Source: a phage | Direction: 5' to 3' (one strand) | Length of the DNA stretch: 64,000 nucleotides | Sequence record: PZ445550.1 | In this document: positions 4,222 to 42,533 of the stretch, piece after piece | How the letters are laid out: each line of letters opens with the position of its first letter | Position numbering within the stretch: position 1 is the first letter of the stretch | Made by a program: the position numbers and the translations under genes | The notes under the pieces: model-generated | Databases searched by the model: none | Told to the model about the DNA's origin: nothing | The model's input: the letters and a program-made list of their open reading frames with translations, nothing else

Positions 4222-5598
4222 ATGACTATTGATATTAATAAGCTGAAAGAAGAACTTGGTCTGGGTGATCTGGCTAAATCTCTGGAAGGTCTTACCGCTG
4301 CTCAGAAAGCTGCAGAAGCTAAGCGCCTACGTGAAGAGCAGGAAGAAAAAGAACTGGCTCGTATGAATGACCTGGTTTCCAAAGCTGTTGGTGAAGATCG
4401 TAAAAAACTGGAAGAAGCTCTGGACTTGGTTAAGTCTCTGGATGAAAAATCTAAGAAGAGCGCAGAACTGTTTGCACAGACGGTAGAAAAACAACAGGAA
4501 ACCATCGTTGGTCTTCAGGATGAAATTAAATCTCTGTTGGCAGCTCGTGAAGGTCGTTCCTTCGTTGGTGACAGTGTAGCTAAAGCACTGTATGGTACTC
4601 AGGAAGCTTTTGAAGATGAAGTTGAAAAACTTGTACTGTTAGCTTATGTAACAGAGAAGGGCGTATTTGAAACTGAACACGGTAAAAACCACCTTAAAGC
4701 AGTAAATAACTCTTCTTCAGTAGAAGTTTCTAGCGAATCTTACGAAACTATTTTCTCCCAGCGTATCATTCGTGACCTTCAGAAGGAACTGGTAGTTGGT
4801 GCACTGTTTGAAGAACTGCCAATGTCCAGCAAGCTGCTGACTATGCTAGTAGAGCCAGAAGCTGGTAAAGCTACTTGGGTAGATGCTTCTACTTATGGTA
4901 CTGATGCTACTACTGGTAATGAAGTTAAAGGTGCTCTGACTGAGATTCAGTTTAAGACCTACAAACTAGCTGCTAAATCCTTCATTACTGATGAAACTGA
5001 AGAAGATGCAATCTTCTCCCTGCTGCCACTGTTACGCAAGCGTCTGATTGAAGCACATGCTGTTTCTATCGAAGAAGCCTTCATGACTGGTGATGGTTCT
5101 GGTAAGCCGAAAGGTTTGCTGACTCTTGCTAGTGAAGATAGTGCTAAAGTTACTACTGAAGCTAAAGCTGATGGTTCTGTTCTGGTAACTGCTAAAACTA
5201 TTTCTAAGCTACGTCGTAAACTGGGTCGTCATGGTCTGAAACTGAGCAAACTGGTACTGATCGTATCTATGGATGCTTACTACGATCTGCTGGAAGATGA
5301 AGAATGGCAGGATGTTGCCCAGGTTGGTAATGATGCTGTTAAACTGCAGGGTCAGGTTGGTCGTATTTACGGTCTGCCGGTTGTAGTTTCTGAATACTTC
5401 CCAGCTAAAGCTAATTCTGCAGAGTTCGCAGTTATTGTCTATAAAGATAATTTCGTAATGCCGCGTCAGCGTGCTGTTACTGTTGAACGTGAGCGCCAAG
5501 CTGGTAAACAGCGTGATGCATACTATGTTACTCAGCGTGTTAACCTGCAACGTTACTTTGCAAATGGCGTTGTATCTGGTGCCTACGCTGCATCTTAA
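4222..5598 (+). CDS. Major capsid protein precursor
   Basis: 458 aa, same length as T5 pb8; coiled-coil scaffold-like N-terminus; E. coli-optimal codon usage; followed by a strong terminator. Confidence 0.85.
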   Translation: MTIDINKLKEELGLGDLAKSLEGLTAAQKAAEAKRLREEQEEKELARMNDLVSKAVGEDRKKLEEALDLVKSLDEKSKKSAELFAQTVEKQQETIVGLQDEIKSLLAAREGRSFVGDSVAKALYGTQEAFEDEVEKLVLLAYVTEKGVFETEHGKNHLKAVNNSSSVEVSSESYETIFSQRIIRDLQKELVVGALFEELPMSSKLLTMLVEPEAGKATWVDASTYGTDATTGNEVKGALTEIQFKTYKLAAKSFITDETEEDAIFSLLPLLRKRLIEAHAVSIEEAFMTGDGSGKPKGLLTLASEDSAKVTTEAKADGSVLVTAKTISKLRRKLGRHGLKLSKLVLIVSMDAYYDLLEDEEWQDVAQVGNDAVKLQGQVGRIYGLPVVVSEYFPAKANSAEFAVIVYKDNFVMPRQRAVTVERERQAGKQRDAYYVTQRVNLQRYFANGVVSGAYAAS

Positions 5599-30174: not shown

Positions 30175-30948
30175 TTAATCATCCAGATCGCTTGCAGCTT
30201 CTGGGTCAATACCTTTCTGGGCTCCAGCATTGCTATTACCAGACTTAGCATCATCATCTTTATTCTCACGACCTTCCATGAATGCTTGAATTGCTTCTTT
30301 CTGCTCTTCATAGGTAGGAACCGGATAAGTATTTTCCAGAGAAGGAACTTTTTCGAACTTGATGATGTCACCATCTTCATCACACATAGCTTCACCAATC
30401 AGGTCAGTATCTACAACATACTGCTTAGCTTCAGCACTGTTAGGATCTTGAAGTTTCATCTGGAACTGCATAGCGGCAATCTGCTGTACATCATATTCAG
30501 TATCAAAGCCTTTACCTTTTTTCTCGATAGAAATATCAATATCGAACGGAGTTGCCAGACTCAACTGCTTCATAATAGACTGGATGCCTTTCAGAATAGT
30601 AGCCTTAACTTCCATTACTTTCAGTTTGTTATCAGAACGGTCAATAACAAAAGCGATATAGTTTTTCTTCGGTTTCAGCGGAACACGATTACCGTCTTTA
30701 TCCAGTTCTTTTTCAAAGAAACCCATGTCATGGACCGGATCAGCTTTACCACGAACAAAACTCTCTTTGTCACGGTTAAAACGTAGACACTCGAACGGAG
30801 CTACTCCACCATCTTTATTAGTCAGCCAATAGACATAACGCGGAAGAACACCAGAAACGATACGAACACGAGTGATGCCGTTGTTGAACTTCAGGAATTC
30901 GATTTTATCGTTAGAACCGCCAGTAGTTTCGCCCCAAGACTTAGCCAT
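30175..30948 (-). CDS. D11-like early protein
   Basis: 257-aa ORF in conserved position between sbcD and the D10-like helicase; E. coli-optimal codons. Confidence 0.5.
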   Translation of the reverse strand: MAKSWGETTGGSNDKIEFLKFNNGITRVRIVSGVLPRYVYWLTNKDGGVAPFECLRFNRDKESFVRGKADPVHDMGFFEKELDKDGNRVPLKPKKNYIAFVIDRSDNKLKVMEVKATILKGIQSIMKQLSLATPFDIDISIEKKGKGFDTEYDVQQIAAMQFQMKLQDPNSAEAKQYVVDTDLIGEAMCDEDGDIIKFEKVPSLENTYPVPTYEEQKEAIQAFMEGRENKDDDAKSGNSNAGAQKGIDPEAASDLDD

Positions 30949-35913: not shown

Positions 35914-35943
35914 ATTATACCAAATCTTTAAGCGATTCAGCAA
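35914..35943 (-). promoter_or_regulatory. Early promoter upstream of DNA polymerase
   Basis: Minus strand reads TTGCTG, 18-bp spacer, TATAAT; overlaps the primase stop codon. Confidence 0.5.
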
Positions 35944-36805
35944 CTAAAATTTCAATACGTTTTGCTAACATATCAATTTCTTCTTTGTTTAAATCACCGG
36001 GGTCTTTACCTTCAGGCAGAAGAAAGTTAGCAACTACAGGCGTTAAACGTGTTTTTGTACGAATTAGCTTAGCCAATGCTTGTGCAGCTTTATTACCAGA
36101 AGTATCATTATCTAGTAAGATAACAACAACTTTAACGCCAGAAATAATATAAGGACTGAACTTATCTGCAATGTTATCAGAAGTAAACTGATGTGTACCA
36201 AAGCAACAAGAAGCATAGTCTATACCATTATCTTCTAGATTCAGCATATCAAAGATACCTTCAACTAGAACAAGAACTGGTGTATTATATCGTATAGGAA
36301 AAATCGGTGGTGAAACTTGTTTTGGTTTTACTAAGTATTTAGGAGGGGCAGAACTGTTTATAGAACGTCCCAGGAATAGGATATTGCGTCCAACAGCATC
36401 TGTTATTGGGAATACAATTCTGCCCTCCCAATCTGCTTGATGTTGGAAAGCAAAATATTTCTTCAAGGTCTTAGAGCTTATACCTCGGAAATCACCTTCG
36501 AAAAGGTAAGCAGATTCAGGAATTGCAAGATTCATAGAACCATTCCTAATCTCAGAAATCTTTTTACGTACTTGAGACAATCTTGGAGATTGTCTATATT
36601 GAGTTTCATTAAAATAGTGATAAATGCTCGGTATACCTTTACCAAAGCCACAACTCAAGCAGTGCATAATACCTGTTTCAGGGTCAATACGCAAACTTGG
36701 ATGTTTATCATCATGATCTGGATTGAGACAACAGATGAGGATGTCCCCACCTGTGTCCTTATATTCAATGCCTTTCAGATCAAGTAGTTCTGTTATTCTA
36801 CTCAT
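35915..36805 (-). CDS. DNA primase (zinc-binding plus TOPRIM-like)
   Basis: Cys/His cluster CCLNPDHDDKHPS...CLSCGFGKG near the N-terminus; acidic TOPRIM-like VLVEGIFD and LLDND. Confidence 0.75.
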   Translation of the reverse strand: MSRITELLDLKGIEYKDTGGDILICCLNPDHDDKHPSLRIDPETGIMHCLSCGFGKGIPSIYHYFNETQYRQSPRLSQVRKKISEIRNGSMNLAIPESAYLFEGDFRGISSKTLKKYFAFQHQADWEGRIVFPITDAVGRNILFLGRSINSSAPPKYLVKPKQVSPPIFPIRYNTPVLVLVEGIFDMLNLEDNGIDYASCCFGTHQFTSDNIADKFSPYIISGVKVVVILLDNDTSGNKAAQALAKLIRTKTRLTPVVANFLLPEGKDPGDLNKEEIDMLAKRIEILVAESLKDLV

Positions 36806-38325
36806 ATATCACTGGCCTGTTCACCTGTTGAATTTTCTGGTTTCTCTTTCTTAGCACGTTTTGGTTGAGCTGGCTTATCCTTTTCTATCGGGATAACGAA
36901 TTCTGCTTCCATTTGAGATATATCTTCCATTGCTAAGTTGGTAGTATTATCCATTCGCAGAGTCTCCCAATTCATTTTAGGCATAAACTTCACGCCATCA
37001 GAAGAACGAGTCTTAACAAAGTCAAACATAATTGCTCCTTGACCATTGTCAGCTTTAGCAGCATTAAGATTAGCAGCCATATCTGCGGAATCAAGAATCC
37101 CTTTTGACATACGTGTTCTACCGTCTTGGTCAATCTGATAAGGAGCTACACCAGCCACATTATGCTTCTGGCAGATAGATTTGAAAGATGAGCTAACAAC
37201 CATCTGTTCTTTCCAATCATACATATCGATGGTTTTGGAATCTGGAAGTCGAGTTTGGTTGATATAGTCTAGTAAAGCTACGGTAACTTTATCTCCATAT
37301 CTAGCAACTAATTTATTTAGCTCTACATCAACTGTTGTGATGGATAATTCTGGATCGTACACTATAATCATAGGAGTATGAAGTTCATACCCTTCAATGA
37401 GCTTACTTTCCATATCATAGAAATCGCTCATTTTTGCCATAGTATACTGTTTGACAAAATTATCAAAAAGTTCCTCACCACCGTTAAACATTCTGGCTCT
37501 GGTTCTAGCTAATCTTAGAAGAGCTGCCCCTTCTAATGTATTATTACGCATTGCTAGAGCAGATACCCCAGCTAACATAGCTAAATTACGTCTAAATACT
37601 TCGTGCTCTTTCATCTCAATTGAGAAATATGGAGCAATATCTCCATTTAAATACTGCTGAACCTGTATGTTTGAACAGATAATGGATTTACCAGTACCAC
37701 GCCAACCACCAAGTAGTAACGTTTCTGTACGAGCTAAGCCTATTTGAGCATCAAACTCATTACAAATACCAAGAGCGATTAAATTTAGTTTGGTATCTTC
37801 TTCTCTCTGGAAAATACGCATATTGTCTGCGTTGAATACCTTTCCAGTATTCGTTACTTTCTCTTCTAATTTTAAGTGAAGGGAGGCAACTCGATTGAGA
37901 ATTTCTCCCTGATCCAGCATTGTTAAATCTTGAAGCACATCTGTTTCCAGAAGCTTCAGGAATAAATCCTGTGTATATTCGGCTTCTAGGACTTCAAGTG
38001 CCTGTTCCATGCTCACTTCTGGGATTTGAGTGTTAGCTAAGACGACTAGAGCTTGAGAAAGGCGGGCGTTCCTATTGGCCTCAAGCATAAGTGCGTCAAT
38101 GGACGGCATTGCGTTATATTTTTTATAATAATTCTGGACGGCTTGGTAAATTGAGGAGAAAGCGTCATTAAAATGATCTTTATGCAGTTTTGAGAATGTT
38201 TCCAATGCTATTTGTTTCTGTTCAGAAGCCAGAAGCATCTTCAACACTACAGCTTGCACGTTAAACAAGGTCATTCTCCTTTGCACGCTTTCGTGCCTTC
38301 TAAATGCAAAAAGGGGAAGGAGCAT
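36802..38325 (-). CDS. DnaB-like replicative helicase
   Basis: Walker A LGGWRGTGKS; RecA-like core; longest ORF starts inside the upstream terminator hairpin, so the true start may be near 38274. Confidence 0.75.
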   Translation of the reverse strand: MLLPLFAFRRHESVQRRMTLFNVQAVVLKMLLASEQKQIALETFSKLHKDHFNDAFSSIYQAVQNYYKKYNAMPSIDALMLEANRNARLSQALVVLANTQIPEVSMEQALEVLEAEYTQDLFLKLLETDVLQDLTMLDQGEILNRVASLHLKLEEKVTNTGKVFNADNMRIFQREEDTKLNLIALGICNEFDAQIGLARTETLLLGGWRGTGKSIICSNIQVQQYLNGDIAPYFSIEMKEHEVFRRNLAMLAGVSALAMRNNTLEGAALLRLARTRARMFNGGEELFDNFVKQYTMAKMSDFYDMESKLIEGYELHTPMIIVYDPELSITTVDVELNKLVARYGDKVTVALLDYINQTRLPDSKTIDMYDWKEQMVVSSSFKSICQKHNVAGVAPYQIDQDGRTRMSKGILDSADMAANLNAAKADNGQGAIMFDFVKTRSSDGVKFMPKMNWETLRMDNTTNLAMEDISQMEAEFVIPIEKDKPAQPKRAKKEKPENSTGEQASDI

Positions 38326-38342
38326 AGCCCCCTCCCCTTAGG
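38305..38342 (-). terminator. Rho-independent terminator after D5-like gene
   Basis: Minus-strand hairpin AAGGGGAGGG-loop-CCTTCCCCTT followed by TTTTTGC. Confidence 0.55.
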
Positions 38343-38356
38343 TTTAATTTACCAGA

Positions 38357-39124
38357 TTATTCAGTAGCCGCAGCTTTTGCATCCAGTTTAGCACGCTTAG
38401 CGGCACCATCATAGTCTTTAGCAACCAGACCACGACGAGACAGCATAGATTTAGCACCGCGCTCAGATTTACCAGTTTTCTCAGCGATTTCAGCAACAGT
38501 CATGTTAGCTAGATCCAAACCTTCTAGCAGATCTTCACGAGTTTTAGCACTTGAAGTTTCCTGTACCGGCATAGCAGCGATACGGCCTTCACGCAGCAGG
38601 CTAAGAGCTTTACCACGAATCTGCTTAATATTACGACCGAAATGTTCGGCAATAGCTTCAATAGTAGCACCAGCAACAACCTGATTTACAAAGTCGGTTT
38701 CTTCATCAGGAGTGAAGGAGCGAACAGCGGCAGCTTTTTCAGTCGGCTTAACAGATGCAGTCATTTCCAGACTCAGAATTTTACCCTGTACCTGCTTAGC
38801 ACCAAATTGACCACCAGCTACAGCAGCAGCAATTTCAGCGTAAGTATACTGACCAGCATGAGCGTTCAGGAAATCAACCAGTTCAGCTTCCTGCTCAGGA
38901 GTCCACGGGGATTTCTGTACTTCGTTAGCTTTCTGTACTTCAAAACCTTCTTTACGCAGTTTGGAGCCAACAGAGCGTGCAGTAACATCTTTACCCGTTT
39001 CAGCAGCCAGTTCAGCAGCGATAGCAGCTACTTGTTCTTGAGAGATTACAGTAACACCCAGAGCAGTGGCTTTTGCTTTCAGAGACTCGGTTACACCTTC
39101 TACGTTCCAGTTCAGTTTAGACAT
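38357..39124 (-). CDS. Putative DNA-binding protein with three internal repeats (T5 D5-like)
   Basis: 255 aa, Ala/Lys-rich; three repeats of a ...AEIA...G...K...GK.LSL... module; strongly biased codon usage. Confidence 0.45.
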   Translation of the reverse strand: MSKLNWNVEGVTESLKAKATALGVTVISQEQVAAIAAELAAETGKDVTARSVGSKLRKEGFEVQKANEVQKSPWTPEQEAELVDFLNAHAGQYTYAEIAAAVAGGQFGAKQVQGKILSLEMTASVKPTEKAAAVRSFTPDEETDFVNQVVAGATIEAIAEHFGRNIKQIRGKALSLLREGRIAAMPVQETSSAKTREDLLEGLDLANMTVAEIAEKTGKSERGAKSMLSRRGLVAKDYDGAAKRAKLDAKAAATE

Positions 39125-39899
39125 TATTATTTTTCTCCAATAGTTCTTTAATCGACAGGATTTCTATCCCATTCGTTTCGGCTTTCTTATAAGATGAGGA
39201 GGAACGCTTCGATTCATCCTCACAGATTAGGTATTTGACGTCTTTGGTAACAGATTTCTTAACCGTATACCCTAGACTTTCTAAATAGTTTGTTGCATCC
39301 GTTCTGTTTGCAAAATCTTGCAAAGATCCGGTAATACATACTGTGATTCCATTTGGTTGGGCTACTAGACCATCAGTAATAATGGTCTCAGCTTTAGTGC
39401 CTCTAATACCAGTTGAGAATTTCCACGGTAATTCGATTACATCCTTGCCTTGTGGGGAATTTAGCCAGGCTTTGTAGTTTTCTCCAGCTTTGCCATCAGC
39501 TCTCACATCTTGAAAGCTAGTGCAATTTTGGGATAATTTCTTTGCTGCAACCTCTCCAATTAGAGGAATTCCTAAAGAACCGAGAACTGAACCAAAGTCA
39601 ATGTCTCCGCGAACTTTAGTATTTAATTCGCTAATTAACTTAGCGGCAACCTTGCTACCCACTGCTCTAACCAAATCTTCTTCGGTTAGGTAAAATAGTT
39701 CTGAAATCTTCGTCAGCTCCAGCTTCTCAATAGTTTTTGGGCCAAAGCCCTTTAACTTCATTTTTGTACAGAAGTTCTCAATTAACTTACTTGATTGCGC
39801 TGGACAGTTGGACTTATTCCTACAGAATAATTGTCCATTGACAAGATCTAGTTTAGAACCACAAGAGGGACATTGTGTTGGAATTTCGATTTTCATCAA
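39117..39899 (-). CDS. ligB: NAD-dependent DNA ligase, C-terminal subunit (Zn finger, HhH, BRCT)
   Basis: CPSCGSKL...CRNKSNCPAQ zinc finger, helix-hairpin-helix region, BRCT-like ITVCITGSL...YLICED. Confidence 0.85.
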   Translation of the reverse strand: MMKIEIPTQCPSCGSKLDLVNGQLFCRNKSNCPAQSSKLIENFCTKMKLKGFGPKTIEKLELTKISELFYLTEEDLVRAVGSKVAAKLISELNTKVRGDIDFGSVLGSLGIPLIGEVAAKKLSQNCTSFQDVRADGKAGENYKAWLNSPQGKDVIELPWKFSTGIRGTKAETIITDGLVAQPNGITVCITGSLQDFANRTDATNYLESLGYTVKKSVTKDVKYLICEDESKRSSSSYKKAETNGIEILSIKELLEKNNNV

Positions 39900-39926
39900 A
39901 TTTCTTCCTTATCAATTTATATAAAT

Positions 39927-39955
39927 ATTATAGCAAGTATTTAAGCATTTAGCAA
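39927..39955 (-). promoter_or_regulatory. Early promoter in the ligA-ligB spacer
   Basis: Minus strand reads TTGCTA, 17-bp spacer, TATAAT. Confidence 0.55.
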
Positions 39956-40098
39956 CTACAATTTTAACTAACTTTGCTTACCCTCGCCATAACTTTCTAT
40001 CCCTCAACTGAATGATAATAGTATATACCTAAGCGGCGAAAATGTCAATAACCACTTTATAATTCCGATATGGTAGATGGGTAGCAAAGGGTTGTGAA

Positions 40099-41070
40099 TT
40101 AATCGTATACTCGCTCTACTATACATGGGATTACACCACCAGCACGAATCACTCTAATCTGGCAACCAATCTCTAAATCAAGAGAGTTAATATAATCAAC
40201 GTTATTAAGAGTTGCTTTAATAATTGTAGCATCATCAATAATTACTGGTTCGAAATAACCAACTGGAGTTACTTTACCAGAAGCCCCTACTTGCCATTCA
40301 ACTTTAGTAAGAGTTGTAATCTCACCTTCTTCGTCCTCTTTAATAGCAAATGCTCCGCGTGGGAATTTATTAGTCCATCCCTCACGGAAGAATTTATTAT
40401 TATCATTAATACGAACAACTTTACCGTCTGTTGGAATCCATTTAAAAAAGGACCGCACATTAACAACTGTTAAAAAGTTTTCATTTTCTAGCCAAAGCAT
40501 ATCTTTTAAATATGCTTCTGTAATACCTACAGATTCGGAAGAGCACTGAATACCGTAAGCAACAAAAATTAAACCACCTTCCCCTATACGTTGTACGAAA
40601 TCATCACTATCTTTAAGATTAATAGCACCAGAGGCAAAGTTACGTTTATTTTCTACTTCTTTTGTAATTAGAACTTCACCAGTGATTTGGGTTGGTACTT
40701 TTTGAGAAATCTTTTTAGGTATGTTCAGCAATCTTACGTTGCTTGTGACATCATTTCCTAAAATACCGTTACCACGGGTTAGTGCTTGAACAAACTCACC
40801 ATCAATATATAGTAGAGAAATTGCACACCCATCCAGTTTATCTGTTTCTACTTGTCCTAGTGGATTGAATGGTGGTTTGTCTCCACGATTATAGTAAACT
40901 TTCTGCAAAGAATACATACGATATAGATGTGGAATATCACCCTTAGGACCAATCTCTTCTTCCAATGGGAAGCGTTTTACTAGGCAATCATACTCTTCAT
41001 CCGAGATGAGAGACATACCCTGATAATATGCTTCTTGACAACGTTTGATAAATTCTCTTATATTAGTCAT
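40099..41070 (-). CDS. ligA: NAD-dependent DNA ligase, N-terminal subunit (adenylation plus OB fold)
   Basis: KxDG adenylation motif (ETDKLDGCAISLLY); ORF ends where full-length LigA would continue into the zinc finger. Confidence 0.85.
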   Translation of the reverse strand: MTNIREFIKRCQEAYYQGMSLISDEEYDCLVKRFPLEEEIGPKGDIPHLYRMYSLQKVYYNRGDKPPFNPLGQVETDKLDGCAISLLYIDGEFVQALTRGNGILGNDVTSNVRLLNIPKKISQKVPTQITGEVLITKEVENKRNFASGAINLKDSDDFVQRIGEGGLIFVAYGIQCSSESVGITEAYLKDMLWLENENFLTVVNVRSFFKWIPTDGKVVRINDNNKFFREGWTNKFPRGAFAIKEDEEGEITTLTKVEWQVGASGKVTPVGYFEPVIIDDATIIKATLNNVDYINSLDLEIGCQIRVIRAGGVIPCIVERVYD

Positions 41071-42122: not shown

Positions 42123-42533
42123 TTACTTAGTGATAGCTCGGATTGCTTCTGCTAGGTGAGCAGCCGCTTTACCAGTCAATTTATCAATAATTGCATCATC
42201 CAAGAAGTCAGATGCTAGACCTGCATCAGAGAATGCAGCACGAAGATCTGAGTGGGCCTGGGCTTTAGAAGTACGGGAACCGCCAGAAGATTTTTCTCCA
42301 GTAGATGCACTTGATTTAGCCGTAGAACCAGCAGCTTTCTTAATATACAGACCTGCTTTGGTTAACTTCATACGGAATCCGTTCGGAGTTACACCATTTT
42401 CCTGGGCAATTTCGCTAACAATTTCCATGCTAACACCAGGACGTTCATCCTCTGGGAATTGTTCCATACGAGCAACATATTCGGAAGACATTTTTTCAAA
42501 CAGTTCATCAGTCCACTGAGTTGGGGTAGTCAT
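42123..42533 (-). CDS. Hypothetical early protein (Ala/Ser-rich)
   Basis: 136-aa ORF with E. coli-optimal codons; ATG sits about 55 nt downstream of a promoter. Confidence 0.45.
   Translation of the reverse strand: MTTPTQWTDELFEKMSSEYVARMEQFPEDERPGVSMEIVSEIAQENGVTPNGFRMKLTKAGLYIKKAAGSTAKSSASTGEKSSGGSRTSKAQAHSDLRAAFSDAGLASDFLDDAIIDKLTGKAAAHLAEAIRAITK

What the first reader, a model, noticed from the sequence alone, without database searches (positions are those of the whole stretch)
38357..39124. Internally triplicated Ala/Lys-rich protein with highly biased codon usage
The 255-aa protein contains three repeats of a roughly 60-aa module and uses almost exclusively E. coli-optimal codons, as does the major capsid gene. 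This fits a very abundant early DNA-binding protein of the T5 D5 type.
Basis: partly seen in the sequence, partly recalled or inferred. Interest (0 to 1): 0.4.

Follow-up and report, generated by a model that had tools for sequence, protein, structure and literature searches.

The report
Phage T5 D5 DNA-binding protein gene
This is the already-annotated gene for D5, the early double-stranded-DNA-binding protein of a T5-like coliphage; it is built from four (not three) tandem helix-turn-helix modules and written in host-preferred codons, so the finding is correct but ordinary.

Summary
The ORF at 38357..39124 (-) is real and encodes 255 aa. It is 100% identical in DNA to the 'D5-like transcriptional regulator' of Escherichia phage KookSpook. 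The protein is 98% identical (250/255) to phage T5 D5, the classical early DNA-binding protein needed for replication and late transcription.

The codon-bias claim holds. CAI is 0.66, the highest of 62 ORFs in the window, against 0.32 ± 0.03 expected for phage-average codon choice. The major head gene is second at 0.60.

The repeat claim is partly right. Profile-profile comparison and an AlphaFold2 model (pLDDT 90, pTM 0.43) show four ~55-65-aa three-helix HTH modules like beads on a string, plus a conserved C-terminal helix. The protein is Ala-rich (17% vs 8% background) but not Lys-rich.

The gene sits last in a ligB-D5 unit, behind two promoter-like sites and before a conserved terminator hairpin.

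Most likely mechanism (inferred): a monomer with four weakly specific HTH modules coats duplex DNA. Already known; low interest.

The parts
38357..39124 (-). D5 coding sequence (255 aa plus TAA stop); 27.1 kDa, pI 6.3
   Evidence: ORF list. 100% DNA identity to the KookSpook 'D5-like transcriptional regulator' and 94.5% to T5 D5. 250/255 aa identical to T5 D5. PHROG 323 at E 2e-71. Mass and pI.
38921..39124 (-). HTH module M1 (aa 1-68). Helices at aa 11-22, 29-43 and 49-58; helix 3 is ARSVGSKLRK.
   Evidence: AF2 secondary structure (model numbering +1). hhalign against M2 gives E 4.9e-8 and against M3 1.9e-7. Weak Pfam HTH_33 / HTH_Tnp_Tc3_2 hits. R50, K55, L56 and R57 are invariant in 31 homologues.
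38735..38920 (-). HTH module M2 (aa 69-130). Helices at aa 76-88, 95-101 and 109-118; helix 3 is AKQVQGKILS.
   Evidence: AF2. hhalign M2-M3 gives E 2.5e-13, probability 98%. Weak Myb hits. Q111, Q113, G114, K115 and L117 are invariant.
38555..38734 (-). HTH module M3 (aa 131-190). Helices at aa 139-150, 155-162 and 166-178; helix 3 is IKQIRGKALSLLR.
   Evidence: AF2. hhalign results. Weak Pfam EutK_C / HTH_23 / HTH_28 hits. G171, K172 and L176 are invariant.
38408..38554 (-). HTH module M4 (aa 191-239). Helices at aa 210-217 and 221-231; helix 3 is ERGAKSMLSRR.
   Evidence: AF2. Pfam Sigma70_r4_2 at 27.4 bits (cut-off 25.7), covering aa 204-230 only. hhalign M3-M4 gives E 5.6e-6 and M1-M4 2e-5.
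38363..38407 (-). Conserved C-terminal basic helix (aa 240-254, GAAKRAKLDAKAAAT), preceded by the invariant D237..G240 motif. It lies outside the repeat.
   Evidence: AF2 helix at model residues 239-253. D237 and G240 are invariant; R244, K246 and D248 are nearly invariant. Net charge +3. Its role (self-association or partner binding) is inferred only.
39135..39138 (-). GGAG Shine-Dalgarno-like motif, 10 nt upstream of the D5 ATG. The D5 start overlaps the end of ligB by 8 nt (39117-39124).
   Evidence: Read directly from the sequence and ORF coordinates.
38301..38339 (-). Terminator-like hairpin (13-bp stem, 8 G-C pairs, 3-nt loop) followed by TTTTTGCATTT. It starts 18 nt after the D5 stop codon.
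   Evidence: Pattern scan. RNA fold -25.6 kcal/mol, z -2.6. The sequence is identical in T5. A hairpin of different sequence plus T6 sits at the same place in marine relative L003.
39927..39955 (-). Promoter-like site TTGCTA-17-(TG)TATAAT upstream of ligB. It lies at about the position of T5 promoter P-K28a.
   Evidence: Scan. T5 annotation of promoters P-K 28a/28b just upstream of ligB.
40020..40048 (-). Promoter-like site TTGACA-17-TATACT (11/12 matches). It lies at about the position of T5 promoter P-K28b.
   Evidence: Scan. T5 annotation.
39117..39896 (-). ligB (NAD-dependent DNA ligase subunit B). It is the upstream gene, probably in the same transcription unit as D5.
   Evidence: KookSpook and T5 annotation. 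No promoter-like site was found on the minus strand inside ligB.

Best explanation
The gene encodes the orthologue of bacteriophage T5 protein D5. D5 is the early double-stranded-DNA-binding protein required for phage DNA replication, the switch to late transcription, and shut-off of early genes.

Shown here:
- The polypeptide is a tandem array of four homologous ~55-65-aa tri-helical helix-turn-helix modules of the GcrA-DBD / Myb / homeodomain-like kind.
- The modules are joined by short linkers and have no fixed mutual orientation.
- A conserved basic C-terminal helix follows the array.
- In every module helices 1-2 are acidic, except M1 helix 1 (net +1). Helix 3 is basic and carries the most conserved residues ([RK]-x-h-x-G/S-K-h-L).
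- The gene has the strongest host-adapted codon usage in the window.
- It is the last gene of a short ligB-D5 unit that lies between two promoter-like sites and a conserved terminator hairpin.

Inferred:
- Each module places helix 3 in a major groove, as the GcrA DNA-binding domain does.
- One monomer therefore contacts several successive grooves with low sequence specificity.
- At high concentration the protein coats phage duplex DNA.
- Coating changes the access of RNA polymerase and DNA polymerase. That would link replication, early shut-off and late gene expression.
- The C-terminal helix may mediate contacts between neighbours or with a partner protein.
For: Identity:
- DNA and protein identity to T5 D5.
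- PHROG 323 match.
- Conserved synteny PC4-ligA-ligB-D5-DnaB-primase-PolA, even in marine T5-like contigs of 62-108 kb.

Function:
- T5 GenBank note.
- A 2026 preprint shows purified T5 D5 is a 26-kDa monomer. It is toxic when expressed alone, and the authors infer (AlphaFold3 model, co-expression, mass photometry) that it binds retron-Kva2 msDNA.

Four modules:
- hhalign comparisons and reversed controls.
- A single alignment of 48 module sequences in one register.
- AF2 model with pLDDT 90.2 and pTM 0.43, showing repeated helix triplets.

Module fold:
- hhalign of the module profile against the GcrA N-terminal sequence gives E 1.1e-7, probability 94%. The reversed control gives E 0.35.
- The GcrA HTH (alpha2-alpha3) binds the major groove using W3, S20-S22, T32-N34, G38-K39 and R42 (PMC5887438). 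In the hhalign alignment GcrA G38-K39 fall on the module profile's conserved G-K in helix 3.

Charge pattern.

High expression:
- CAI rank 1 of 62, z 13.
- The bias persists despite 35 synonymous codon differences from T5.
- The homologue has the lowest Nc among 16 genes in marine relative L003.

Transcription unit.
Against: - No DNA-binding experiment can be done here. Coating, cooperativity and low specificity rest on the old T5 biochemistry, which I recall from memory and could not read (papers not held).
- The protein is slightly acidic overall (pI 6.3), which is unusual for a DNA-coating protein.
- The M2-M4 profile similarity is weak on its own (E 0.0068). M4 is linked to the repeat family mainly through M3 and M1.
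- Codon bias indicates, but does not measure, abundance.
- The retron preprint reports an escape phage carrying a W74* stop codon in D5. That is hard to square with an essential protein unless the stop is suppressed or the call is an artefact.
Confidence: 0.85

Rival explanations
1. D5 is chiefly a sequence-specific transcription factor: a late-gene activator or early-gene repressor. It would recognise defined sites with its HTH modules and contact RNA polymerase, in the manner of GcrA or a sigma region 4 mimic, rather than coat DNA.
For: - Database names include 'D5-like transcriptional regulator' and 'putative transcription factor'.
- M4 passes the Pfam Sigma70_r4_2 cut-off (27.4 vs 25.7 bits).
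- The best structural match is the DNA-binding domain of the transcription activator GcrA.
- The T5 note says D5 is required for late transcription.
- Some distant relatives fuse a sigma-like N-terminus to 4-5 D5-like modules (P0252, P0237).
Against: - Codon adaptation equal to or above the capsid gene fits a stoichiometric protein, not a low-copy regulator.
- D5 has no cysteine, so it has no GcrA-type CCCH sigma-interacting domain.
- There are no sigma regions 2 or 3, and the sigma hit covers only 27 residues.
- The conserved helix-3 residues are mostly Lys/Arg/Gly/Ser/Gln, which fit backbone contacts.
- The two readings are not exclusive: coating could itself be the regulatory mechanism.
Confidence: 0.12
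2. It is the phage single-stranded-DNA-binding protein, as annotated in Klebsiella phage vB_Kpn_3.
For: One GenBank record names the orthologue 'single stranded DNA-binding protein' (H3). It lies in the replication gene cluster.
Against: - The model is all-alpha HTH with no OB fold.
- A separate gene at 30175..30948 (-) matches the SSB family PHROG 1607 at E 3e-103.
- The retron preprint's AlphaFold3 model has D5 binding a DNA stem-loop through an HTH.
Confidence: 0.02
3. The apparent repeat is a compositional artefact of Ala-rich amphipathic helices, or the protein is a degenerate transposase HTH remnant, as some metagenome annotations say.
For: - The module profile hits designed coiled-coil peptides with EEIAQQ-like sequence at the top of a PDB search. 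This shows that composition can drive scores.
- JGI names some homologues 'transposase'.
- There are weak IS630/Tc3 HTH hits.
Against: - Reversed-profile controls with identical composition score 7-12, against 28-61 for five of the six true module pairs.
- The alignments are in register over whole modules, including the conserved aromatic residue at the start and the G-K in helix 3.
- AF2 gives the same helix triplet in three modules and helices 2-3 in M4.
- There is no transposase catalytic domain, and the length is fixed at about 240-255 aa.
Confidence: 0.02

Closest known systems
Bacteriophage T5 D5 protein (gene T5.118, AAS77164; PHROG 323)
   Same: 250/255 residues are identical and the length is the same. 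It has the same neighbours (ligB upstream, D6 helicase downstream), the same terminator hairpin and the same extreme codon bias.
   Different: Five substitutions (T25D, E160A, A206V, A224V, T254A, window residue first). This phage lacks the HNH endonuclease gene hegJ that T5 carries between D6 and the primase gene.
GcrA DNA-binding domain (Caulobacter crescentus; PDB 5yiu / 5z7i)
   Different: GcrA has one such domain plus a linker and a CCCH zinc-finger domain that binds sigma70 region 2. D5 has four copies, no cysteine and no such domain. There is no Pfam GcrA hit.
Tandem tri-helical HTH arrays: Myb R2R3 repeats, Tc3/paired bipartite domains, Timeless DNA-binding domain
   Different: Those proteins have two or three modules and bind specific sequences or structures. 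D5 has four, and relatives have five to about eleven. D5 is thought to bind duplex DNA broadly.
Phage phi29 protein p6 (viral histone-like protein)
   Same: This is a functional analogy. p6 is a highly abundant early phage protein that covers the viral duplex DNA. It is needed to start replication and takes part in the early-to-late transcription switch (PMC4974454).
   Different: p6 is not noted as a relative in that review, and I did not compare p6 with D5 by sequence or fold. p6 acts as multimers. D5 is a monomer in solution that carries its multivalency within one chain.

Membership tests
T5 D5 family (PHROG 323, 'transcriptional regulator, D5-like') | Full-length sequence similarity to T5 D5 | tested here: met
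   BLASTP gives 250/255 identical. PHROG 323 at E 2e-71 covers residues 1-253.
T5 D5 family (PHROG 323, 'transcriptional regulator, D5-like') | Position in the replication module between ligase subunit B and the DnaB-like helicase | tested here: met
   Window ORFs and the KookSpook and T5 annotations. The same order is seen in marine T5-like contigs.
T5 D5 family (PHROG 323, 'transcriptional regulator, D5-like') | Binds double-stranded DNA; required for replication and late transcription | not testable with these tools
   Known for T5 from its GenBank note and from classical papers that I could not read. Assumed for a 98%-identical orthologue.
GcrA cell-cycle regulator family | N-terminal tri-helical HTH DNA-binding domain | tested here: met
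GcrA cell-cycle regulator family | C-terminal CCCH zinc-finger sigma70-interacting domain | tested here: not met
   D5 contains no cysteine. The C-terminus is a single basic helix. No Pfam GcrA match.
Sigma-70 family | Region 4 HTH together with regions 2 (and 3) | tested here: not met
   Sigma70_r4_2 at 27.4 bits covers only aa 204-230, profile positions 23-49 of 54. Sigma70_r3 is sub-threshold at 16.6 bits, and there is no region 2. NCBIfam sigma70-ECF scores 13.4 bits against a cut-off of 42.9.
Phage single-stranded-DNA-binding proteins | OB fold or match to an SSB family | tested here: not met
   The model is all-alpha and there are no SSB hits. The SSB family match belongs to another gene, 30175..30948.
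   Repeats are supported, but there are four copies.

The most novel reading that the evidence does not exclude
D5 is the prototype of a class of phage 'chromatin' proteins made of a variable number of GcrA-type HTH modules on one chain. T5-like phages have four. Relatives have five (P0121, P0182) to about eleven (P0258).

On this reading, one monomer spans several successive major grooves. Copy number sets the footprint. The invariant C-terminal helix provides cooperativity.

This multivalent DNA-binding surface would also explain why an abundant early protein can be sensed by a DNA-based defence sensor (type IX retron msDNA).

I found no description of the four-fold GcrA-like repeat architecture in the literature I could search. 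The preprint speaks only of 'a helix-turn-helix motif'.
Probability: 0.35. Interest if true: 0.4.

Novelty: already known. Interest (0 to 1): 0.15.

Why it matters
As a genome-scan finding it matters little. The gene is annotated in hundreds of T5-like phage genomes, and its product has been studied since the 1970s.

Two points may be useful to specialists:
- D5 is not a protein with 'an HTH motif'. It is a four-fold tandem array of GcrA-type HTH domains plus a conserved C-terminal helix. This gives a concrete, testable model for how a monomer could bind long stretches of duplex DNA. It also shows which residues to mutate: the G-K pair of helix 3 in each module.
- Many database names for this family appear wrong or misleading. 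Examples are 'single stranded DNA-binding protein', 'transposase' and 'hypothetical protein'.

Because D5 was recently reported as the trigger of a type IX retron, knowing that it offers four similar DNA-binding surfaces could help interpret escape mutations. G53D lies in helix 3 of M1, and G232D lies just after helix 3 of M4.

Tried and rejected
- hhalign in self-comparison mode returned no hits. I replaced it with explicit module-against-module comparisons.
- A sequence search of the PDB with the whole protein found nothing.
- Foldseek against the PDB with the whole model gave no hit below E 0.001, because the model is four loosely connected domains.
- The afdb50 library was not available.
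- A PDB search with the module profile was topped by designed coiled-coil peptides. These are a compositional artefact (EEIAQQ-like helices) and I discarded them. GcrA appeared there only at E 0.7.
- Pfam scans of single modules gave only sub-threshold hits to many different HTH families and none to GcrA. NCBIfam gave nothing useful.
- The classical D5 papers and the Davison review are not in the held library. Statements about cooperativity and abundance from those papers are from memory and are marked as such.
- I checked two defence papers for a D5 link. The DRT4 trigger is T5 ORF55, not D5. The daunorubicin paper does not concern D5.
- No tRNA genes lie in the window, so phage tRNAs could not be related to the codon bias here.
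- I considered horizontal acquisition as the cause of the local GC rise and rejected it, because GC3 equals the phage average.

Full report
**1. What is at the coordinates**

The window holds an ATG-initiated ORF of 255 codons at 38357..39124 on the minus strand. A megablast against 50,697 phage records found 437 records with a match.
- The best match is 100% identical over all 768 bases. It is Escherichia phage KookSpook, where the gene is annotated 'D5-like transcriptional regulator'.
- Phage T5 itself is 94.5% identical in DNA, at gene D5 (T5.118).
- The protein is 250/255 identical to T5 D5. The 40 differing codons comprise 35 synonymous and 5 non-synonymous changes.
- PHROG 323 ('transcriptional regulator, D5-like') matches residues 1-253 at E 2e-71.
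- The neighbours follow the T5 order: ligA, ligB, D5, DnaB-like helicase D6, primase, DNA polymerase.

The window is therefore part of a T5-like phage (Demerecviridae), and the ORF is the D5 orthologue.

**2. Checking the observation: composition and codons**

Composition:
- Alanine is 17.3% of residues, against 7.8% in the other 61 ORFs I called in the window (z 5.6).
- Lysine is 8.6% against 7.1% (z 1.0), so it is not enriched.
- Glutamate is mildly enriched at 10.2%.
- Predicted mass is 27.1 kDa and pI is 6.3. 'Ala/Lys-rich' is only half right.

Codon usage:
- I used the Sharp & Li E. coli relative adaptiveness values, entered from memory.
- CAI is 0.656, the highest of 62 ORFs (median 0.25).
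- The next ORFs are: the 458-aa ORF at 4222..5598 (CAI 0.60), which matches major head protein PHROG 10; an SSB-family gene at 30175..30948 (0.55); and a D3-like DNA-binding protein gene at 42123..42533 (0.46).
- If the D5 amino-acid sequence were encoded with the phage's average synonymous choice, the expected CAI would be 0.316 +/- 0.026, with a maximum of 0.419 in 2000 simulations. The observed value lies 13 SD above that.
- Codon counts: 35 of 44 Ala are GCT, 15 of 19 Leu are CTG, 17 of 19 Gly are GGT, 14 of 17 Thr are ACT and 9 of 12 Arg are CGT.
- AGA, AGG, ATA, GGA, GGG and ACA are absent, although all are common in the four neighbouring genes.
- T5 D5 has CAI 0.695, so the bias is maintained despite the 35 synonymous differences.
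- GC3 (0.29) equals the phage average. The local GC rise seen reflects Ala and Gly codons, not foreign origin.

The codon claim, including the comparison with the capsid gene, is confirmed.

**3. Checking the observation: the repeat**

- The best off-diagonal Smith-Waterman self-alignment scores 77, against 38 +/- 7 in 200 shuffles. The best shuffle reached 75.
- Pfam gives only weak HTH hits, but they fall in four separate places: residues 32-68, 71-100, 144-188 and 204-230.
- I aligned 31 homologues (A1) and cut the alignment into M1 (1-68), M2 (69-130), M3 (131-190) and M4 (191-255). I compared the sub-profiles with hhalign. All six pairs aligned in the same register.
- With a deeper alignment of 167 full-length homologues the values were: M2-M3 E 2.5e-13 (98%); M1-M2 4.9e-8 (95%); M1-M3 1.9e-7 (94%); M3-M4 5.6e-6 (86%); M1-M4 2e-5 (77%); M2-M4 0.0068.
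- Controls with the target profile reversed, which keeps the composition identical, gave scores of 7-12 and E >= 0.05.
- Forty-eight module sequences from 12 homologues align together in one register (A2).
- The shared pattern is: an aromatic residue followed by T/S/N and an acidic helix 1; a helix 2 of the type x-E-I-A; then a basic helix 3 with [RK]-x-h-x-G/S-K-h-L.

An AlphaFold2 model built on A1 has mean pLDDT 90.2 but pTM 0.43. This means confident domains without a confident mutual arrangement.
- Its helices fall into triplets at residues 11-22/29-43/49-58, 76-88/95-101/109-118 and 139-150/155-162/166-178.
- In M4 the helices lie at 210-217/221-231, with a short first helix.
- A C-terminal helix at 240-254 follows (model numbering +1).

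The repeat is real, but there are four modules, not three.

**4. What kind of module**

- No solved structure resembles the whole protein.
- After it comes a long list of small HTH and winged-HTH domains: Tn3 resolvase, Lrp/AsnC, LuxR-type, Myb, Tc3 and Timeless.
- hhalign of the module profile against the GcrA N-terminal 49 residues gave probability 94% and E 1.1e-7 over 46 columns. The reversed sequence gave E 0.35.
- In the GcrA-DNA crystal structure the alpha2-alpha3 HTH sits in the major groove. Contacts come from W3, S20-S22, T32-N34, I37-K39 and H41-R42 (PMC5887438).
- In the hhalign alignment GcrA G38-K39 fall on the conserved G-K of helix 3. By position in the module, W3 and S20-S22 correspond to the conserved aromatic residue at the module start and to the Ser/Thr before helix 2.
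- D5 is nevertheless not a GcrA. GcrA's second defining domain is a CCCH zinc finger that binds sigma70. D5 has no cysteine at all.
- It is not a sigma factor either. The Sigma70_r4_2 hit (27.4 bits, cut-off 25.7) covers 27 residues of M4 only.
- In the viral structure library the only strong matches are other D5 proteins. The rest are multi-HTH viral proteins at low TM-score.

**5. Family and context**

- A profile search of 1.84 billion representative proteins found only 446 proteins at E <= 0.001 and 75 at E <= 1e-30. Most are 235-255 aa and match end to end.
- Variants show that the module number can change: P0121 (309 aa) has an extra M2-like copy; P0182 (283 aa) has five modules; P0258 (599 aa) is a run of about eleven; P0252 and P0237 join a sigma-like N-terminus to four or five modules.
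- In marine T5-like contigs (TARA, 62-108 kb) a 49%-identical homologue sits in the same gene order: PC4-like, ligA, ligB, D5, DnaB, primase, PolA.
- In the one such contig analysed (L003), the homologue has the lowest effective number of codons among 16 genes (38.5 against 43-61). It also has 13.5% Ala, where most neighbouring genes have 3-8%.
- High expression and Ala richness are therefore shared with a distant relative, which suggests they are traits of the family.

**6. Expression signals**

- The D5 start codon overlaps the last 8 bases of ligB. A GGAG lies 10 nt upstream.
- On the D5 strand the only promoter-like sites lie upstream of ligB, at 40048..40020 (TTGACA-17-TATACT) and 39955..39927 (TTGCTA-17-TATAAT with an upstream TG). 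They lie at about the positions where T5 annotates promoters P-K28b and P-K28a.
- From memory, these are among the strong early T5 promoters characterised by Bujard and colleagues.
- Eighteen nucleotides after the D5 stop there is a 13-bp G+C-rich hairpin followed by a T-run (38339..38311; -25.6 kcal/mol).
- The hairpin is identical in T5. In the marine relative a hairpin of different sequence plus T6 occupies the same place.
- D5 thus appears to be the last gene of a short unit. D5 and ligB would share a transcript yet differ threefold in CAI, so a higher yield of D5 would have to come from translation. This is inferred.

**7. How it most likely works**

Shown: the identity with D5, the four HTH modules, their basic helices 3 and acidic helices 1-2 (M1 helix 1 is the exception at net +1), the lack of a fixed inter-module geometry, the conserved C-terminal helix, and the signs of very high expression.

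From the literature:
- The preprint's authors infer from an AlphaFold3 model, co-expression and mass photometry that T5 D5 binds DNA through its HTH.
- D5 runs as a 26-kDa monomer and is toxic when expressed alone.
- It triggers the type IX retron Kva2; the authors propose that it does so by binding the msDNA stem-loop.
- An escape phage carried G53D, W74*, V149I and G232D in D5 (bioRxiv 10.64898/2026.07.11.737809).
- G53 lies in helix 3 of M1, and G232 follows helix 3 of M4.

From memory of the 1979-1983 papers of McCorquodale, Moyer, Fujimura and colleagues, which I could not read here:
- gpD5 is a ~29-kDa protein made in large amounts.
- It binds duplex DNA cooperatively.
- It inhibits transcription and some DNA polymerase reactions on duplex templates in vitro.

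Inferred:
- Each module docks helix 3 in a major groove, as GcrA does.
- The four modules of one chain occupy successive grooves.
- At high concentration the protein covers phage DNA.
- This cover gates the access of RNA polymerase and DNA polymerase. That would explain why one protein affects replication, early shut-off and late expression.
- The closest functional analogue is phi29 p6, an abundant histone-like early protein with the same three roles (PMC4974454). I did not compare p6 with D5 by sequence or fold.

**8. Rivals**

- A purely sequence-specific transcription factor is the main alternative. It is consistent with the database names, the GcrA and sigma-r4 resemblance, and the sigma-fused relatives.
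- It fits poorly with capsid-level codon adaptation and with the absence of any recognisable polymerase-binding domain.
- The two views can be reconciled if coating is the regulatory act.
- The SSB and transposase annotations, and a compositional artefact, are rejected on fold, on the presence of a separate SSB gene, and on the reversed-profile controls.

**9. Novelty and verdict**

The analysis adds three things:
- a corrected anatomy: four GcrA-type HTH modules plus a C-terminal helix;
- quantified codon bias;
- the layout of the transcription unit.

I found no description of the four-fold repeat in the literature I could search, but this is a refinement of a known protein, not a new kind of system. 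Interest is low.

Noticed in passing
window 38311-38339 and 38325 (minus strand): The ATG annotated as the start of the D6 DnaB-like helicase, in both KookSpook and T5, lies in the loop of the terminator hairpin that follows D5. In the marine relative the helicase gene starts about 100 nt after the D5 stop, beyond the hairpin. The true D6 start may be further downstream, near the AAGGAG at about 38276-38281.
   Followed up: partly
window 35915-38325, compared with L002 5305-5838: T5 carries an HNH homing endonuclease gene (hegJ, 534 nt) between D6 and the primase gene. This phage lacks it: the helicase and primase genes abut (36802/36805).
   Followed up: no
window 30175-30948 (-), 42123-42533 (-): Apart from the capsid gene, the next most codon-adapted ORFs are two other DNA-binding protein genes: the SSB family gene (PHROG 1607, CAI 0.55) and the D3-like gene (PHROG 1725, CAI 0.46). 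Stoichiometric DNA-binding proteins appear to be the most codon-adapted non-structural genes in the window.
   Followed up: partly
window 38642-39151 (+): A 169-aa ORF runs antisense to D5. It is probably a by-product of the strong codon bias of D5, which leaves few stop triplets on the opposite strand, and not a gene. The phage record annotates nothing there.
   Followed up: no
related proteins P0121, P0182, P0258, P0244, P0252, P0237: D5-type modules occur in other copy numbers. There are five in two D5-like proteins, about eleven in a 599-aa protein and eight matched stretches in a 692-aa protein. In two proteins they are fused behind a sigma-70-like N-terminal region. Their genomic contexts were not examined.
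   Followed up: partly
one search hits H2, H8, H26; P0020, P0040: Records named Campylobacter phage C13 and Listeria phage LM 4-11-1 / 4-14-1, and partial 'Enterococcus faecalis' proteins, carry this gene at 94-99% identity. These are most likely T5-like coliphage or Salmonella-phage sequences with mis-assigned hosts, or contamination.
   Followed up: no
literature: A retron-Kva2 escape mutant of T5 is reported with a premature stop (W74*) in D5 together with three missense changes. This is surprising for a gene classically defined by conditional-lethal mutants. It remains unexplained.
   Followed up: no
window 39900-40098 (between ligA and ligB): The NAD-dependent ligase is split into two genes. 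The ~200-nt gap holds both strong promoter-like sites and a 40-codon ORF (40004-40126) that KookSpook annotates as hypothetical. The ORF overlaps the promoter region and may not be a real gene.
   Followed up: no
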